Source: an uncultured virus (IMG/VR IMGVR_UViG_3300025398_000011) (Duplodnaviria; Heunggongvirae; Uroviricota; Caudoviricetes). Taken from it: a stretch of DNA of 32,988 bases. The stretch lies in IMG/VR virus record IMGVR_UViG_3300025398_000011; one strand, given 5' to 3'. Below the pieces are notes generated by a model that saw nothing but the letters and a program-made list of their open reading frames with translations, had not been told where the DNA came from and made no database searches. A program made the position numbers and the translations under genes. Position 1 is the stretch's first letter. Every line of letters starts with the position of its first letter. Shown piece by piece: positions 25,632 to 32,417 of this stretch.

Positions 25632-25801
25632 AGGTTTCCTTCTAATAAGTTGATCGCGTCTAATATGCCGTAGTAATAGCCCTCATTAAAGTTCCACTTA
25701 GGGTCGCTTGTGTGGTTCGGCTCATCATCTTGTGGCACTAGAACCGCTAATCTATTATTAAGTGCGTTATGCAACTTATCTAAGACTTCTTTATTACTCA
25801 T
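25628..25801 (-). CDS. hypothetical protein, 57 aa, not in track
   Basis: MSNKEVLDKLHNAL...YYYGILDAINLLEGNL; ATGA overlaps on both sides. Confidence 0.6.
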   Translation of the reverse strand: MSNKEVLDKLHNALNNRLAVLVPQDDEPNHTSDPKWNFNEGYYYGILDAINLLEGNL

Positions 25802-26022
25802 AGCAAATCCTCAATCTCGTTGCCCTCATCATCATAGAAGTGGGTGGGGATATAGTCATTAAAGGACTCATCAGCCCACTCTGCAATTAGTTCGACAATC
25901 ATCTCTAAAGTAATCTCTGAAACTTCACACTCGTTGCTCTCAGCCATATCGCTTAAGAAATCTTCGTCAATCGTGTAACTGATTGACCTTTGCGCCGTAA
26001 TAACTTTAGGTAACTTACTCAT
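25798..26022 (-). CDS. acidic hypothetical protein
   Basis: 74 aa, ends FYDDEGNEI. Confidence 0.7.
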   Translation of the reverse strand: MSKLPKVITAQRSISYTIDEDFLSDMAESNECEVSEITLEMIVELIAEWADESFNDYIPTHFYDDEGNEIEDLL

Positions 26023-26044
26023 CAGTATTCTTTCTCTCGTTAGG

Positions 26045-26595
26045 TTGCGCGTAAATCAAGGTACAAGGAAGGTCGCTACTCCTACCCTCTCGGATACTAG
26101 GCGTAACCATAGGCTTACCTATATCTCATCTATTGTGAAGTAGTAACCTAGTCAATCTATATGACCTTGATACTTCTCCTTGCCCTTGACTTACACAATT
26201 ATGGTCGAGTGAGGGTTGGGTTAGGTACTAGAGGTAATCAGGTCGTGACCAACATACCTTGCTAATCCGATACCGCCCCCACAAGACAGGGGTTGCCATA
26301 CCATACAAGTTTTAGGGCGGTTTAAGTAGTCCACTATTTCAGAGCCACACGCACATTAAGGGTAACTAAGTACCCACGCCGTATCCGCAGATCGCTAAGG
26401 CTCGCCTACACCCAATCAACTTACTGGTATAGCAATTCTATTTAATTTTAGGTTGGTAGGGCTAGATACAGATTTTATAGGCGGTGCTGAAGGTAGTGAC
26501 TACTAAAACAATTAGCAAGGCTATTTCTAGCGTTGTGTCTTTTCGCTCTATTGCTTATTAACGGCGTATTACTCTCTACTCTAACCCTAACCAAT
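26045..26595 (-). ncRNA. large structured non-coding RNA candidate (family unassigned)
   Basis: No ORF of 60 aa or more in 26023-26596; multiple nested long-range helices, G-U pairs favouring the minus strand, GNRA-capped hairpin. Confidence 0.65.
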
Positions 26596-26596
26596 T

Positions 26597-26896
26597 CTAT
26601 TCGTCTAGGCTCTCAGCCATTTTCTCTGTTACTGCAAAGTCAGCAAAACTAATTCCACCAGCAATAGTACCCATCTGAGTTAGAACAGTTACCATAGCCA
26701 ACGACTCCTCAGTATCAACGCCGAGTGCTACCAGCCTCTTATGAATAGCCTTTTTCATAATCTCTACCATAGGAGAGGCGTTGTTGATGAGGTACTGCAT
26801 ATCCTCAGCACTAGGCTTGCTATTGCTCCCCATAGTTTTTAAGATACGCATAGCAATTTCTTTTTCGTTCTTGCTTAGATTGTCTAGTGGGTTCAT
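26597..26896 (-). CDS. hypothetical protein
   Basis: 99 aa, GAAAGGA SD. Confidence 0.7.
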   Translation of the reverse strand: MNPLDNLSKNEKEIAMRILKTMGSNSKPSAEDMQYLINNASPMVEIMKKAIHKRLVALGVDTEESLAMVTVLTQMGTIAGGISFADFAVTEKMAESLDE

Positions 26897-26921: not shown

Positions 26922-26947
26922 AACAGTAATATAGTTGATTTTATTCC
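26922..26947 (-). promoter_or_regulatory. ECF sigma (SigR/SigH-type) promoter
   Basis: GGAAT-N18-GTT, intergenic, upstream of 26896. Confidence 0.7.
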
Positions 26948-26949
26948 CG

Positions 26950-27417
26950 TTACCAAGAACTCTGATAGTAGAAACTCCAAGTTTCAGGGGCGGTATTTAG
27001 GAGTATAGTAATGCGAGAAGCGGTTTCTTTAAGAGAATCAAAGTAGTAAGAGTCATACTCTGTACCACCAAAGAAAAACCCCTCTGAGGTAGGAAGTAAT
27101 TTATGCGCTAAGTCGCGGTTCTGAACCACCTTTACGCATAAATCTCTGAGTTCTCTCAACTTATCTCGGCTTACCCAATACCTCTCGCAGTTATCGTTAC
27201 CGCCCTGAACATTTTTTACGAACCAATCGTGGATTGCATTAGCCTTGCGCCAATACATTGAGGTAACAGTTATATCCGCGCTAGGCGAGTTGAGGTCGGA
27301 AATAGCCGTTGCCTCAACCGCATTGACCACGCTTTTATACTGCTCGCGTTCGTTTTCTTCTCGGAAGCCGTAACCGCTTATATGCTTCTCGGCGTATAGG
27401 TACATATCCAAGCCCAT
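26950..27417 (-). CDS. conserved phage hypothetical protein (MGLDMY...YWRKAN family)
   Basis: MGLDMYL, YWRKANAIH.WF, LP...GFFFG, YYQSSW motifs. Confidence 0.8.
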   Translation of the reverse strand: MGLDMYLYAEKHISGYGFREENEREQYKSVVNAVEATAISDLNSPSADITVTSMYWRKANAIHDWFVKNVQGGNDNCERYWVSRDKLRELRDLCVKVVQNRDLAHKLLPTSEGFFFGGTEYDSYYFDSLKETASRITILLNTAPETWSFYYQSSW

Positions 27418-27862: not shown

Positions 27863-29773
27863 TTATGCCACCTTCTTTAGAGTTGATTTAACTAGGGCGG
27901 TGGCAACATTGAGAATATCTCTAGGAGTTGATACCGCGTGGAATACCTGAGCCTTATGGCGTAGGCGCTTGATGTAGTTGGTGGCTTGCTCGTCACCAGT
28001 AATCGAACGGCTGAGGACTTCCTTGTAGGACTTGTAATCGCCCAAGAATACAACTGAGGTAATCACGCCCTTCTCGCCCATACGCTTGATTAGTTCATCA
28101 CATTGGGCTTCTTTCTCCCACTCGCCGTCAGTAACGATAAAGAGAATCTTAATAGATTTCTTAGAAGCAGAGAGGATACGATCAGCCTCAATAATTCCGC
28201 GAATAGGGTTGGTGCTACCGCGCGACTCCACATAACGCATAGTTCTAGGCTTAGCCTTATCCTTTGACTCATAGAGGAGTTCGGTATCAGAGTCGAACGA
28301 GTACGCCGTAACTGAGCCGTTGATTGACTCGATACCGCGCTTGATAATCCAAGTGTTCTCGCAGACCGCCTTCATAAGCCCGCCCATTGAGCCTGAGTTA
28401 TCTGTAAGGATAACCGCCTCAATATCGGTGGCTTCATTACCCATATCCCATTGGTCGAACGCCTCAGAGATTGCATTAACATCAGGGTTCATAGTGCGCG
28501 AGATATTAAGGCGACCACTACGGACACGACTTACCCAAGCAGGGTCGTTATTGCGAACTAGGCGCTCCAACTCTGTACCGAAACGCTTTGCAGTAGAGAT
28601 TGCTCCCTCACTAGGTTCTAATAAGGCGTGATTTCCCTGAGCGATTGCGGTACGCGCAGTATCAGAATCTAAAATCGCGTTACGAGTATCCCGAATCTCG
28701 CGCTTAACGCTCGAATCGTTCTTAATCTGCTCCATACGCTCATTGAGTGCCTGAGCGAGTGCAGAGTCCTCAGAGTCCTTCTCGCGGTCAGGTTGCTCTA
28801 CTGATTGCTCGCTAGGCGCTTTGTTTGTTGTGGGCTGGCTATCCTGAGGCTTGCCGTTGCCCTTACCCAACTTCTCAGTAGGGAACTTGCAACCGCCTTC
28901 CTCTTGCAACTGCTCCTGCTCCTTAGTACCAGCAGGGCGACCCTTAGTAGGAAGTGTGCAGGTATCTGTGTCGCTAGGGATACCGCCCTGTGGAGTCTGC
29001 TCATCATCAAGCCCAACCAACTGTGCTAGTCGGTGAGCGAGAACCTTTGCAGTATCGAAATCTCTAGGGAATACGAGATTGCGGTATTCGTGCATAATCG
29101 AGTGAACCTCTTGGACAATATCTAATCCGTACTGTGCCACCGCTTTGTCTGCAATAACCTGTCGTAACTCAACTGGTAAGTAAGTGCGACCTGTGATTAA
29201 GTGGAACTTACCGCCCCAAGTGGAAGGCTTACCAGCGAGCAGGTAGGTATAGACACTAGCCTCTAGGTACTTGCGAACGGCAGGGTAGCGAGTGATGAGC
29301 AACTGCTCGGTACGCGCTTCCTCTAGGAGAGCAAGAGCGCGGAATAGTTTATTCTCACGCGCATAGATACCTAGATTAGAACCGATACGAGGGCTGAATA
29401 GAATATGACCGAGTTCGTGATAGTTCACGCCATTGAGGGAGATGAGTGACTCATCAGTTAAGTCCTCAATCAAGCGAGCATTTAACTCCATATCCTTGCC
29501 GTTAGTGCGCGCATTGGTATCTAAGTCAGGGTCGTTGATAACTGTAACTGTTACTTCCTCACCTGTGATAATGCGGTTAGCGCGCTGATAAACTCCTGCA
29601 ACTGCATTGAGTCGGTTGGTGCGCTCAGCATATTTCTCCACCGCTTCCGCGTGGGTGAGTCCGTCTTTGCTGGAAATAATCCACTCACCAGTAGTTTCGT
29701 CTAGTTCGTGGCTTAGACCATAGAAGTCGGTTAGTGCGTCTAACTCATCTCGCTTATGATTACGGCGCGCCAT
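27863..29773 (-). CDS. vWA-domain protein with N-terminal HExxH metallopeptidase-like domain (CobT-like partner)
   Basis: YHELGH, LEEAR.E, acidic linker, MIDAS DNSGSM...T...VTDG. Confidence 0.85.
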   Translation of the reverse strand: MARRNHKRDELDALTDFYGLSHELDETTGEWIISSKDGLTHAEAVEKYAERTNRLNAVAGVYQRANRIITGEEVTVTVINDPDLDTNARTNGKDMELNARLIEDLTDESLISLNGVNYHELGHILFSPRIGSNLGIYARENKLFRALALLEEARTEQLLITRYPAVRKYLEASVYTYLLAGKPSTWGGKFHLITGRTYLPVELRQVIADKAVAQYGLDIVQEVHSIMHEYRNLVFPRDFDTAKVLAHRLAQLVGLDDEQTPQGGIPSDTDTCTLPTKGRPAGTKEQEQLQEEGGCKFPTEKLGKGNGKPQDSQPTTNKAPSEQSVEQPDREKDSEDSALAQALNERMEQIKNDSSVKREIRDTRNAILDSDTARTAIAQGNHALLEPSEGAISTAKRFGTELERLVRNNDPAWVSRVRSGRLNISRTMNPDVNAISEAFDQWDMGNEATDIEAVILTDNSGSMGGLMKAVCENTWIIKRGIESINGSVTAYSFDSDTELLYESKDKAKPRTMRYVESRGSTNPIRGIIEADRILSASKKSIKILFIVTDGEWEKEAQCDELIKRMGEKGVITSVVFLGDYKSYKEVLSRSITGDEQATNYIKRLRHKAQVFHAVSTPRDILNVATALVKSTLKKVA

Positions 29774-31230
29774 TAGTTGCTACCCCCTAACTGTGATTGC
29801 AACTGCATAGCCCGAACCATTTGGTTGGCTAACTGCTCAGGAGATACTTGCTCTACTGTGGAAGTGTCCACATCAGGAGTATCTACGACTAGACCTAGAT
29901 CACGCGCGATATTGACCTTCATAGTTTCGATACTCATACGCACCGCACTACGCTCATCTTTATCGAAGCCGTTCACATAAGAGGAGATTGCTAGGTTGAG
30001 TCCTAGACCAAGCGCGTTCTTTTGGAAGGCAACGAGTCCGCGAGTAGAGATAGGAGTAGAGATTTCCTCTCGGTCATACTGGTCGCGTAACTTGCCAGCC
30101 AACTCCAAGAGTGCTTTGGACTTGATGAGTTTAGCCTCAATACGCTTATCGTATGGGAACTCCAACTTAACCTTCCAGCGATCATTGTTCGCCTGTGAAA
30201 GTTCGTGAGTGCCACGATAGCCAGCGTTCATATCTGCAACGACTAGAAGATCAGGGTGAGCCTTGATGACTTCTCCACCATTGTCGAGCAACTGAATCTC
30301 TCGGCGGTCATCTAGTAGCGAGTAGAGAACTGTAATAATGCGCTCAGGCATAAAGTTCACTTCATTTAAGAGTAGAACTCCACCATAGCGGACTAGGAGA
30401 GTGACCGCGCCGTCTTGCCAGCGATAGCCCTGTCCGTCATCTCTAGGAATCCAACGACCAAAGAGTTGTGAAGGGTCAAGACCAGCATTGGAACTCACGT
30501 TAAAGTAACGCTTGCCACGCGCTGAGGCATAGGCGAGTACGCTCATAGTCTTACCTGAGCCAGCACCGCCCTCAATCAGTACGTTGATATTATTCTCTAG
30601 GGCATAGTCATAAATATCAAAGTCAGACTTGCCGTCATCAAAGTAGCGGTTGATATATTCCTTAGCCCACTTAGAGTCGGGAACTGTAATCATATTTTCG
30701 TATGCGAGTGCGCTTGCCCTATCCATTTGAGGGACTTCTACACGCTCATACTTGGGCGGAGTCTGCTCCTGTATGAACTCCACGATCTCCGCGCGCTGAG
30801 GCTTTACACCTGTAAGCGGTTCGAGAGTAATGCCATTGACTCGGCGCTTATCAGTAATGTAGGCGGTGAGAGAGTTATCTCCTGCATAGAGTGAGCCGAT
30901 AAGGTTCTCTACTGCCTCTCGGTGAGTGGAAGGCGCGATAATAGGCTCGGCACTTTCTAGGGCATAGAGAGCCTTAGCCCCGATATTGGTAACGAGTCCT
31001 GAGCCTACGAGTGCGGTATCGCGCTCGGTGAGGAGTACGGCAACAGGGTTGAGCGTGAGCAGGGTATCGGGCAGGGTAGAGGTATCCTCTAGTTGCGCCC
31101 AAGTCTGACCACGACCTGCCTGACCAGTTGAGTCGCGGTGATAGGTAACGACCTCTCCATTGTGGGGAAGAATAAGAGTCTGCTGGCTGAGTTCGCCAAC
31201 CTGTGTTTCTACGAGTAGTGCGATAGTCAT
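29773..31230 (-). CDS. MoxR-family (CbbQ/NirQ/CobS-like) AAA+ ATPase
   Basis: Walker A GGAGSGKT, WQDG, Walker B LLLNE, I.AHPD, MN.GY.GT..L..A..DR. Confidence 0.88.
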   Translation of the reverse strand: MTIALLVETQVGELSQQTLILPHNGEVVTYHRDSTGQAGRGQTWAQLEDTSTLPDTLLTLNPVAVLLTERDTALVGSGLVTNIGAKALYALESAEPIIAPSTHREAVENLIGSLYAGDNSLTAYITDKRRVNGITLEPLTGVKPQRAEIVEFIQEQTPPKYERVEVPQMDRASALAYENMITVPDSKWAKEYINRYFDDGKSDFDIYDYALENNINVLIEGGAGSGKTMSVLAYASARGKRYFNVSSNAGLDPSQLFGRWIPRDDGQGYRWQDGAVTLLVRYGGVLLLNEVNFMPERIITVLYSLLDDRREIQLLDNGGEVIKAHPDLLVVADMNAGYRGTHELSQANNDRWKVKLEFPYDKRIEAKLIKSKALLELAGKLRDQYDREEISTPISTRGLVAFQKNALGLGLNLAISSYVNGFDKDERSAVRMSIETMKVNIARDLGLVVDTPDVDTSTVEQVSPEQLANQMVRAMQLQSQLGGSN

Positions 31231-31271: not shown

Positions 31272-31297
31272 AACATTTTAGAGTTGAGTTTTATTCC
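31272..31297 (-). promoter_or_regulatory. ECF sigma (SigR/SigH-type) promoter
   Basis: GGAAT-N18-GTT upstream of the AAA+ gene. Confidence 0.7.
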
Positions 31298-31298
31298 C

Positions 31299-31845: not shown

Positions 31846-31910
31846 TGGGTCACCTTTCTACTGCATAGTGCGCGTTTGGCGCGGTTATGGGGTTTGTCTT
31901 ACATACTTAG

Positions 31911-31936
31911 AACAGAATAGGGGGGTACTTTATTCC
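31911..31936 (-). promoter_or_regulatory. ECF sigma (SigR/SigH-type) promoter
   Basis: GGAAT-N18-GTT upstream of 31845. Confidence 0.7.
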
Positions 31937-31957
31937 ATAGTAGGAGAAGGAATATAG

Positions 31958-32211
31958 ACTCTCAGGAATCTCTCAGACTTCTCTCGGCTCTCAGTTATCA
32001 TATAGGGCAATTCGGACATATGCGGACAAAGTAGTTATCATATAGACAAAAAGGGGTAAAGTGTCTAAATGTGGTCGCTCCCCTGCACTCTCGCCCTAGT
32101 GTTTAGACAGTAGCCCAAATAATGTCTAATCTCTGCTCTCTCACTCTACTCTAGAGTATCTCTCGGCTAACTCTCAGGAATCTCTCAGCCGGTGTTCACC
32201 TAATGTTCATC
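31958..32211. repeat. 11-bp-periodic direct repeat arrays and a 13-bp direct repeat
   Basis: ACTCTCAGGAATCTCTCAG at 31958 and 32170; AGTTATCATATAG at 31993 and 32033; phased TCTCAG/GTTCAC units. Confidence 0.85.
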
Positions 32212-32215
32212 TGCC

Positions 32216-32355
32216 GGCGGGAATAGTTTGTGTTGGGCTAATTGTTAATTCAATTAGCCCAATTGCTTATTCCGTGTTAATTCACGGAATAAGAGGTCTT
32301 TGTTCGGATGTGGGTGGGTGGGTCCAACACAAACAATCGGCGGATTATTCCCGCC
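32216..32355. repeat. nested inverted repeats with twin TTAATT-loop hairpins
   Basis: 12-bp stem 32233-32262, 11-bp stem 32266-32293, outer arms 32216-32236 / 32324-32355. Confidence 0.85.
32326..32351 (-). promoter_or_regulatory. ECF sigma (SigR/SigH-type) promoter
   Basis: GGAAT-N18-GTT, just downstream of a terminator. Confidence 0.55.
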
Positions 32356-32376
32356 TGACTGGTCATATTCTATTGT

Positions 32377-32411
32377 AAAGAAGGGGCGCCCCTACTACAA
32401 GGCGCCCCTAT
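32377..32411 (-). terminator. intrinsic terminator
   Basis: GGGGCGCC/GGCGCCCC stem followed by TTCTTT on the minus strand, after the stop of 32418..32627. Confidence 0.75.
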
Positions 32412-32417
32412 TAGTTC

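What the first reader, a model, noticed from the sequence alone, without database searches (positions are those of the whole stretch)
26045..26595. Large (~550 nt) ornate non-coding RNA candidate in the minus-strand gene block
Seen: the only long ORF-free gap in a densely packed operon is filled with nested complementary pairs. These are 26568-26592/26214-26238 (long bulged closing helix), 26511-26520/26257-26266 (perfect 10 bp), 26494-26507/26321-26336, 26315-26321/26272-26278 and 26399-26403/26342-26346. A second domain is closed by 26177-26194/26051-26069 and contains a GAGA-tetraloop hairpin (26083-26096). Possible pseudoknots: 26561-26568/26375-26382 and 26536-26541/26283-26288. A-C mismatches on + become G-U on -, matching the gene direction. 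I found no tmRNA, RNase P or clear group I/II signatures. Inference: a phage large structured RNA, either a GOLLD/ROOL-like class or new, likely transcribed from the ECF promoter at 26947.
Basis: partly seen in the sequence, partly recalled or inferred. Interest (0 to 1): 0.85.

Follow-up and report, generated by a model that had tools for sequence, protein, structure and literature searches.

The report
New modular folded RNA of lake phages
The gene-free gap holds a folded, non-coding RNA of about 400 bases that belongs to no catalogued RNA family and is shared by a small group of freshwater-lake phages; what it does is still unknown.

Summary
The 574-nt gap (26023-26596) is real. It matches no Rfam family, tRNA or tmRNA. 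Relatives found through the neighbouring 155-aa gene show that only about 400 nt are conserved (26199-26600, minus-strand sense). Six further distinct versions from lake metagenomes keep an ORF-poor gap there. Two more distant versions (L162, L213) lie in another gene context.

The conserved fold is three domains side by side, not one large closing helix. It has 83 pairs, 94% of cells paired and 19 pairs with compensatory changes, above all 500 shuffles. Only its GAGCC/GGCUC helix is confirmed by covariation.

G-U outnumbers A-C 78 to 6, and 52 of 55 indels break the reading frame. So this is an RNA read in the gene direction, not a gene or a DNA site.

Each domain starts with the junction AUAGA(A)UUG followed by a closing helix. 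Domain 1 recurs in 600-nt RNAs of other phages.

Weak points: no transcript data, few sequences, the core's folding energy is unremarkable, and the function is unknown. Verdict: a real, undescribed, modular phage RNA family.

The parts
26933..26948 (-). Promoter-like or regulatory motif GGGAATAAAATCAACT, between the 155-aa and 99-aa genes. It is the candidate start of the transcription unit 99-aa gene + RNA.
   Evidence: A second copy lies at 31282-31298 (-), upstream of the AAA ATPase gene: 2 matches, 0 in 100 shuffles. The GGGAATAA(A/T) core is kept at the same place in L082-L091 and occurs three times in L162, two of them flanking the RNA. It overlaps a weak sigma-70-like hit, TTGGTA-17-TATATT. 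Function is inferred.
26597..26896 (-). 99-aa gene of unknown function, directly upstream. Its stop codon lies inside the first junction motif of the RNA.
   Evidence: ORF list. Conserved in all six close relatives at 49-97% aa identity. No Pfam or PHROG hit.
26450..26600 (-). Domain 1. It starts with junction motif AUAGAAUUG (26592-26600). The closing helix P1 pairs 26576-26594 with 26453-26471, and there are internal helices.
   Evidence: Inner P1 (12 pairs) is 100% paired in 10 distinct sequences, including L092, L009, L105 and L137. Four pairs covary, and the score lies above 500 of 500 shuffles. The window MFE gives the same helix. Coordinates.
26433..26452 (-). Single-stranded linker with the second copy of the junction motif (AAUUAAAUAGAAUUG; AUAGAAUUG at 26433-26441).
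   Evidence: Nearly invariant in subfamilies A and B. Three of the 6 window-wide matches to ATAGA-N0-3-TTG lie on the minus strand inside the gap.
26293..26435 (-). Domain 2, the most conserved core. P2 pairs 26420-26435 with 26293-26309. P3 is GGGUG 26409-26413 with CGCCC 26315-26319. P4 is GAGCC 26399-26403 with GGCUC 26342-26346. The P5 hairpin is 26360-26375. The invariant loop UGAAA..GGACUACUUAAAC is 26320-26341.
   Evidence: Covariance model R1 finds it in all A members and in L162 (E 4e-7) and L213 (E 0.015). nhmmer gives L162 1.6e-9 and L213 8.9e-13. P3+P4 in 8 distinct sequences: 97.5% paired, 4 of 10 pairs compensatory, 0 of 500 shuffles as high. P2 has 15 pairs, 99% paired, 3 compensatory.
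26199..26292 (-). Domain 3. The outer helix pairs 26273-26287 with 26204-26215. The inner helices include GGAUUAG 26262-26268 with CUAGUACC 26224-26231.
   Evidence: Helices 10-14: 27 pairs, 75-100% paired, 6 pairs with compensatory change. Conserved only in subfamily A. L213 and L162 have a plain long hairpin at this position.
26023..26198 (-). It has an 18-bp stem (26177-26194 with 26051-26069), a GAGA-loop hairpin (26083-26096) and a third junction-like motif AUAGAUUG (26153-26160). The ribosome-binding site of the 74-aa gene follows.
   Evidence: Folds far better than shuffles (z -5.03, 0 of 200). It has no counterpart in any relative except the identical contig L082. Relatives have the start of a different gene here. 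Motif.

Best explanation
The gap encodes a member of an undescribed family of modular, structured non-coding RNAs of freshwater-lake phages.

Shown:
- A core of about 400 nt (26199-26600, minus-strand sense) is conserved.
- It folds into three side-by-side domains.
- Domains 1 and 2 begin with the junction AUAGA(A)UUG, whose UUG opens an 11-19 bp closing helix.
- Domain 2 carries invariant unpaired stretches.
- Large lineage-specific domains are inserted at three different points.
- The domains recur in other combinations and other gene contexts in related phages.

Inferred:
- The RNA is transcribed together with the upstream 99-aa gene from the conserved GGGAATAAAA motif. I found no promoter-like site within the element and no terminator-like site beside it.
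- It is then trimmed at the A/U-rich junctions into a stable species.
- It acts on its own as a structural RNA. It would bind a protein, or itself, through the invariant domain-2 loop. It is not a regulator of one particular neighbouring gene.
For: - Homologues: 9 of 161 loci fetched around the 155-aa gene hold it, and all 9 come from the metagenome scan. All have an ORF-poor gap there.
- Non-coding: 52 of 55 indel runs are not multiples of 3.
- Strand: 78 G-U against 6 A-C cells. Pairing is 94.3% in the sense direction and 81.8% for the antisense equivalent.
- Covariation: 83 pairs, 19 compensatory, score 0.247 against 0.153 in shuffles (0 of 500 as high). Slid controls give 35-47% paired.
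- P3/P4 hold in 8 distinct sequences. P1 holds in 10.
- Nucleotide identity of domains 2 and 3 equals or exceeds that of the flanking genes in most comparisons. Example L090: domain 2 is 87.5% against 70-74%.
- A closing helix of different sequence follows the junction motif in every lineage, enclosing 125-156 nt in 11 of the 13 sequences tested.
- The MFE folds of L213, L091 and L009 each give side-by-side domains on their own, with z -3.7, -4.0 and -2.5.
- The context changes. In the window the RNA lies after the 155/99-aa genes. In L213 it lies before the ATPase gene, 4 kb from the 155-aa homologue. In L009 it lies before the 155-aa gene.
- One copy per record in the two records where it was found.
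Against: - No RNA data: no listed sequencing run is RNA, so transcription, ends and processing are not shown.
- Only 7 + 2 distinct full homologues, several of them close. Shuffle controls ignore relatedness, so the statistics are indicative only.
- The window core's folding energy is not better than shuffles (z -1.42).
- Several conserved G-rich and C-rich segments have two or three possible partners that invariance cannot separate. Examples: CGCCC with GGGUG or with GGGCGG, and the 5' end with the domain-1 or the domain-3 strand.
- No promoter or terminator of its own was found. This fits a cis-acting mRNA element equally well.
- No partner protein was identified. The 155-aa protein has no informative fold match.
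Confidence: 0.55

Rival explanations
1. It is a cis-acting part of the polycistronic early mRNA. It would be an intercistronic element that controls processing and stability of the flanking messages, read-through of RNA polymerase (processive antitermination), or translation of the next gene. It would not be a free-standing RNA.
For: It starts at the stop codon of the upstream gene. In relatives it ends about 10-15 nt before the ribosome-binding site of the next gene. The simple scans gave no promoter-like hit within the element and no terminator-like hit beside it. It always lies inside a co-directional gene block. The A/U-rich junction next to a stable helix looks like an endonuclease entry site; this rests on the RNase E preference as I recall it, not on a test.
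Against: It is 5-8 times larger than the cis elements of this kind that I recall. The downstream gene differs between lineages: 74 aa, 86 aa, the AAA ATPase, the 155-aa gene. A gene-specific control role is therefore unlikely. Invariant unpaired loops and tolerated 95-210-nt domain insertions are typical of autonomous structured RNAs.
Confidence: 0.25
2. It is a catalytic RNA, either a self-cleaving or other ribozyme. The invariant domain-2 loop would form the active site, and the junction motifs would mark cleavage sites that release the modules.
For: There are strictly invariant unpaired nucleotides inside a covarying scaffold. A repeated junction motif sits at the 5' edge of domains 1 and 2. 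Peripheral insertions are tolerated.
Against: No match to any ribozyme family in Rfam, even at E<=10. Domain 1 and the L098-type element carry the junction motif without the domain-2 core, so the motif does not depend on that core. No activity data.
Confidence: 0.08
3. The conserved sequence works as DNA: a replication origin, a packaging or recombination site, or a block of protein-binding sites.
For: It is an ORF-free conserved region in a DNA-metabolism neighbourhood (DNA polymerase A, RecA, SNF2 helicase, ribonucleotide reductase). The opposite strand of the core folds slightly better in energy terms.
Against: Pairing depends on G-U pairs that become A-C on the other strand (78 against 6). 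Compensatory changes keep long-range helices up to 125-235 nt apart. No iterons or tandem repeats were seen in the alignments.
Confidence: 0.04
4. It is a decayed protein-coding gene, or it hides small unannotated genes.
For: Some relatives have ORFs of 52-97 aa in the region (L084-86: 61 and 52 aa; L083: 97 aa inside its insertion).
Against: These ORFs are not shared. L087, L090 and L091 have no ORF of 45 aa or more that starts inside the element. 52 of 55 indel runs break the frame. Conservation is highest in segments that pair.
Confidence: 0.03

Closest known systems
[quoted passage not shown]
   Same: Both are phage or prophage-encoded, large and multi-domain, with one universally conserved part and a less conserved part, and of unknown function. 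GOLLD's name refers to lake samples. (GOLLD properties from passages of PMC12286853.)
   Different: No match to the Rfam model in the window or in 10 relatives. This RNA is about half the size, and there are no tRNA genes nearby. It has different conserved motifs and a repeated junction motif at domain starts. Self-assembly has not been tested.
ROOL RNA (rumen-originating, ornate, large)
   Same: Both are phage-encoded large structured RNAs with no known protein partner. ROOL is thought to work as RNA only (PMC12286853).
   Different: No Rfam match. No tRNA island. The architecture is side-by-side helix-closed domains, not ROOL's pseudoknotted fold. The habitat is freshwater-lake phages.
Intercistronic processing and antitermination RNAs of phages (RNase III sites between T7 early genes; put RNA of HK022). 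These are recalled, not looked up here.
   Same: Both lie between co-directional genes of an early operon with no terminator of their own. Both are built of stable helices.
   Different: This element is many times larger and has covarying long-range helices and invariant loops. It also moves between gene contexts in different phages.
The 10,006 candidate structured RNAs predicted in viral sequences (Fremin et al. 2023, PMC10690425)
   Same: The same kind of object: conserved structured intergenic regions of uncultured phages found by comparative genomics (abstract read).
   Different: I cannot tell whether this family is among them. A search of the held supplement text for two core motifs (each as DNA and as RNA) and two sample numbers found nothing, but 3 files were not searchable.

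Membership tests
GOLLD RNA | Match to the Rfam covariance model | tested here: not met
   No hit at the gathering score in the whole window. None at E<=10 in 25900-26750. None at E<=1 in 10 related loci.
GOLLD RNA | Usually beside tRNA genes in phages or prophages (PMC12286853) | tested here: not met
   ARAGORN finds no tRNA in the 33-kb window.
ROOL RNA | Match to the Rfam covariance model | tested here: not met
   no hit.
Group I / group II intron | Match to the Rfam intron models, and an interrupted host gene | tested here: not met
   No Rfam hit. The upstream gene ends with its own stop codon. In relatives the downstream gene has its own ribosome-binding site and start, and it differs between lineages.
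tmRNA / RNase P RNA | Detection by ARAGORN (tmRNA) or by the Rfam models | tested here: not met
   none.
Large structured ('ornate') non-coding RNAs, as a loose kind | More than 300 nt, non-coding, several conserved helices supported by covariation, invariant unpaired segments | tested here: met
   Core of about 400 nt. 83 pairs, 19 of them compensatory. Frame-breaking indels. Invariant loop 26320-26341.
Large structured ('ornate') non-coding RNAs, as a loose kind | Exists as a discrete transcript | not testable with these tools
   No RNA run among the 24 listed holders. Only DNA contigs could be laid on the region.
Ro60 / Y-RNA type ribonucleoprotein (considered because a vWA protein is encoded nearby) | A TROVE-domain Ro protein encoded next to the RNA | tested here: inconclusive
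   The 636-aa neighbour has no Pfam hit. 13 of its 120 listed homologues carry vWA and none carries TROVE. An invariant H-E-x-x-H points to a metallopeptidase-vWA protein. The structure prediction was not accepted.

The most novel reading that the evidence does not exclude
This would be a new class of modular phage RNA. Helix-closed domains of about 125-155 nt each start with the same AUAGA-UUG junction. They are shuffled, duplicated and inserted like building blocks between phage lineages. Domain 1 is shared with 600-nt RNAs of other phages. Domain 2 is shared with RNAs next to the ATPase gene. Extra domains occur in L091, L083, L090 and in the window itself. The modules would be cut out at the junctions and would work as an RNA-only or RNA-protein machine during takeover of the host, through the invariant domain-2 loop, possibly with catalytic or self-assembling activity.
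Probability: 0.3. Interest if true: 0.8.

Novelty: new variant of a known kind. Interest (0 to 1): 0.68.

Why it matters
Only a few large structured RNAs without a known job are known from phages, GOLLD and ROOL above all. Those two turned out to build RNA-only cages larger than a ribosome (PMC12286853). A further unrelated family shows that such RNAs are more varied than the catalogue suggests. This one has a clear domain grammar, invariant loops and natural domain insertions, and its compact natural version (L213, about 320 nt) is small enough for probing and cryo-EM. The repeated junction motif gives a concrete, testable idea of how large phage RNAs are assembled and processed.

Tried and rejected
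- Expression: no RNA holder was listed among 24 runs. Laying 4 runs gave DNA contigs with strain variants only.
- DNA search of cultured-phage records with the region found no match. The 155-aa protein finds only 5 distant (about 31-33%) hits there, in Klebsiella and Escherichia phages.
- IMG/VR: the 80 loci kept around 155-aa homologues had no sequence homologue of the RNA.
- IMG/VR motif scans gave only L162 and L009's contig. The 3 loci gave no profile match. 42 of 43 stretches and 5 of 6 were chance or coding matches.
- The genome-contig scan gave 3 stretches, none a significant profile match; the best, L164, had E 0.28.
- Flanking 99-aa and 74-aa proteins used as probes in IMG/VR gave 1 marginal and 0 hits.
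- The nearest held record, G001, is a 19.8-kb fragment without the region.
- Domain-2 profile against L009, L092 and L098-type gaps: only the junction motif aligns. Domain 2 is therefore not shown there.
- L214, upstream of a related ATPase gene, holds a repeat-rich regulatory region like window 31846-32417, not the RNA.
- Junction motif as a -10 promoter element (TAGAAT): rejected. A start 5-9 nt downstream would remove the 5' strand of the covarying helix. The motif does not recur elsewhere in the window.
- Link to one protein: the 182-aa gene upstream in L162 and L213 is unrelated to the 155-aa and 99-aa proteins. Most 155-aa homologues have no large adjacent gap.
- 155-aa protein: the model is confident (pLDDT 92) but has no clear structural relative. 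Foldseek's best E is 0.08. VIA's best Z is 7.2 to the N-terminal part of DapD and 5.0 to YfbM. The profile finds nothing among PDB sequences.
- Ro60/Y-RNA idea for the 636-aa neighbour: no support.
- Literature: 4 full-text searches found no description of this family.
- Earlier findings of this scan: none for this genome or sequence. The word search returned only unrelated RNAs of other genomes.

Full report
THE WINDOW AND THE GAP. The window is a phage region. It encodes DNA polymerase A, RecA, an SNF2 helicase, ribonucleotide reductase and an AAA_5 ATPase. The DNA runs that hold it are labelled freshwater or aquatic metagenomes. Between the 99-aa gene (26597-26896, -) and the 74-aa gene (25798-26022, -) lie 574 nt in which no ORF exceeds 39 aa. 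Rfam gives no hit at the gathering score for the whole window, nor at E<=10 for 25900-26750. ARAGORN finds no tRNA or tmRNA. It is not the only such gap in the minus-strand block: 31846-32417 also lacks ORFs of 50 aa or more.

All the listed complementarities exist at the stated coordinates. The whole gap folds better than shuffles on the minus strand (z -3.47, 0 of 100) and less so on the plus strand (z -2.19). Most of this excess comes from 26023-26198 (z -5.03). The part that turns out to be conserved, 26199-26596, has z -1.42 (10 of 100 shuffles as good), and its opposite strand has z -2.64. Folding energy therefore does not carry the case. Comparative evidence does.

HOMOLOGUES.
- Direct DNA search of cultured phages found nothing.
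- The 99-aa and 74-aa proteins were poor probes.
- The 155-aa neighbour (26950-27417, PHROG 7971, no Pfam hit) has many relatives. The 80 IMG/VR loci kept (36-56% identity) contained no sequence homologue of the RNA.
- The metagenome scan returned closer ones. There, blastn and nhmmer found the element in 9 of 161 loci. L082 is identical to the window. The others are L083, L084, L085=L086, L087=L089, L090 and L091, with 155-aa identities of 88% down to 62%.
- In all of them the stretch after the 99-aa gene is ORF-poor.
- The alignment shows that only the first 398 nt after the stop codon are shared. In relatives, the window's 26023-26198 is replaced by the start of a different gene.
- The conserved part has lineage-specific insertions at three separate points: about 210 nt in L091, about 95 nt in L090 and 183 nt in L083. 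A 25-nt piece is present only in the window and L084-86.
- Motif scans and a neighbour search added two distant members in another context: L162 (nhmmer E 1.6e-9) and L213 (8.9e-13). There the RNA lies between a 182-aa gene and the AAA ATPase gene.

RNA, AND ON WHICH STRAND. 52 of 55 indel runs relative to the window are not multiples of three. In the consensus structure, 78 cells are G-U and 6 are A-C, so pairing falls from 94.3% to 81.8% if read on the other strand. Nucleotide identity of the RNA domains equals or exceeds that of the flanking genes in most comparisons. For L090, domain 2 is 87.5% and domain 3 is 81.6%, against 70.3% and 74.3% for the two genes.

STRUCTURE. RNAalifold on 7 sequences, the window's own MFE fold and independent MFE folds of relatives agree on domains lying side by side.
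- I replaced the interior of domain 2 by two helices that also hold in L162 and L213. P3 is GGGUG/CGCCC, with AGGUG/CGCCU in L091 and AGGUG/UGCCU in L213. P4 is GAGCC/GGCUC, with GAGGC/GCCUC in L091, GCAAC/GUUGC in L213 and GAGAC/UUCUC in L162.
- On 8 distinct sequences these 10 pairs are 97.5% paired, and 4 have compensatory changes. No shuffle reaches the score, and slid controls give 39-54% paired.
- The full model on the 7 close sequences has 83 pairs, 94.3% paired and 19 compensatory pairs. Its score is 0.247 against 0.153 (0 of 500), and slid controls give 35-47% paired.
- The 10-bp helix uses the 25-nt insert that three sequences lack.
- The long closing helix (74-83% paired in its two runs) competes with P1, which is 100% paired.
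- ACCGCCC/GGGCGGU (90% paired) competes with P3 and has no counterpart in L213.
- These alternatives involve invariant bases and cannot be settled here.
- All these statistics rest on few, related sequences. The model was partly derived from them.

A WIDER, MODULAR FAMILY.
- Domain 1 starts with AUAGAAUUG, which overlaps the stop codon of the 99-aa gene. Domain 2 starts with the same nine bases. A similar AUAGAUUG lies in the window-specific part. These are 3 of the 6 matches to ATAGA-N0-3-TTG in the whole window on both strands.
- L091 carries the motif three times, the extra copy opening its inserted domain.
- The same motif, followed at once by a closing helix of different sequence, opens ORF-free gaps next to 155-aa homologues in other phages. 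These are L098/L099 (about 150-nt element), L092, and L009/L105/L137 (about 600 nt, upstream of the gene). In 11 of the 13 sequences tested the helix closes 125-156 nt.
- Domain 1 aligns across the window type, L092 and the L009 type. Its inner helix (12 pairs) is paired in all 120 cells, with 4 covarying pairs.
- Domain 2 is not detectable in those gaps.
- Domains are therefore combined differently in different phages.
- None of 10 related loci hits a relevant Rfam family at E<=1. The element is single-copy in the two records where the model finds it.

CONTEXT.
- The window order is AAA_5 ATPase, a 636-aa protein, two small ORFs, the 155-aa gene, the 99-aa gene, then the RNA. Homologues of the 636-aa protein carry vWA domains, and it has an invariant H-E-x-x-H.
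- In L213's record the RNA precedes the ATPase gene, and the 155-aa homologue lies 4 kb further on.
- The RNA thus travels with this gene block but not with one gene.
- A 16-nt motif, GGGAATAAAA(C)TCAACT, occurs upstream of the 99-aa gene and again upstream of the ATPase gene, with 0 expected by chance. Its core is kept in all close relatives and flanks the RNA in L162. It is promoter-like by position and recurrence, but nothing shows an ECF type.
- The simple scans gave no terminator-like hit beside the element.

HOW IT MOST LIKELY WORKS. Shown: a conserved, non-coding, minus-sense, multi-domain fold with invariant loops and swappable domains. Inferred: it is co-transcribed with the 99-aa gene and trimmed at the A/U-rich junctions. 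As I recall the RNase E preference (a purine, any base, then A/U-U-U), the junction fits it; I did not check this. The RNA would then act as a free structural RNA through the invariant domain-2 loop (26320-26341). The main rival is a cis-acting intercistronic mRNA element. Ribozyme, DNA-site and decayed-gene readings are less likely, for the reasons given under each.

COMPARISON AND NOVELTY. The closest known things are GOLLD and ROOL, which are phage-borne, large and of unknown function (passages of PMC12286853). Their models do not match, there is no tRNA neighbourhood, and the domain grammar differs. Four literature searches found no description. The catalogue of Fremin et al. (abstract read) may include this family, but three of its supplement files could not be searched. 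I rate it a new RNA family within the loose kind 'large structured phage RNAs'. Reality is fairly secure, function is open, and known distribution is narrow: about 15 distinct sequences, nearly all from the metagenome collection.

Noticed in passing
window 31846-32417 (minus strand): A second gap of about 570 nt without ORFs of 50 aa or more, in the same gene block. It begins with a GC-rich hairpin followed by U's right after the upstream gene. It holds repeated CCUGAGAG/CCGAGAG-type words. A similar repeat-rich region lies upstream of the related ATPase gene in L214 (1-578). It is probably a regulatory or promoter region.
   Followed up: partly
window 26933-26948 and 31282-31298 (minus strand): A 16-nt motif, GGGAATAAAA(C)TCAACT, occurs twice, each time upstream of a minus-strand gene, with 0 expected by chance. 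The core GGGAATAA(A/T) is conserved in relatives and present three times in L162. It is a candidate phage promoter or operator.
   Followed up: partly
window 27863-31230 (minus strand): A gene pair. One gene encodes an AAA_5 (MoxR/CobS-like) ATPase of 485 aa. The other encodes a 636-aa protein whose homologues carry vWA domains and which has an invariant H-E-x-x-H motif near residue 119. The pair is conserved next to the RNA-bearing region in several phage lineages.
   Followed up: partly
window 26950-27417 (minus strand): The 155-aa protein family (PHROG 7971) is very common in freshwater viral contigs: 207 relatives in IMG/VR and at least 538 in metagenomes. It gives a confident model (pLDDT 92) with no clear structural relative. 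Invariant residues include Y-W-R-K and G-F-F-F-G stretches.
   Followed up: partly
L009 3399-4000; also L105 and L137: ORF-free RNAs of about 600 nt lie upstream of the 155-aa homologue. They share domain 1 and the junction motif with the window RNA but carry other, well conserved downstream domains, including another AUAGAUUGGG-initiated domain. There is no Rfam match.
   Followed up: partly
L091 1029-1247 and L083 4100-4282: The large insertions in the RNA are bounded by short duplications: 16 nt containing the junction motif in L091, and CAACCC in L083. This suggests that whole domains are gained by duplication or insertion.
   Followed up: no
L098 3626-3675: Directly after the small L098-type element there are three tandem copies of a unit of about 11 nt (CAAACAAACCG).
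   Followed up: no
L213 1563-1611 and about 1750-1765: In L213 the 5' strand of the domain-1 helix (GGACUACU) is identical to the start of the invariant domain-2 loop. The 3' strand UAGUAGUCC could therefore pair with either, which is a possible alternative or tertiary pairing.
   Followed up: partly
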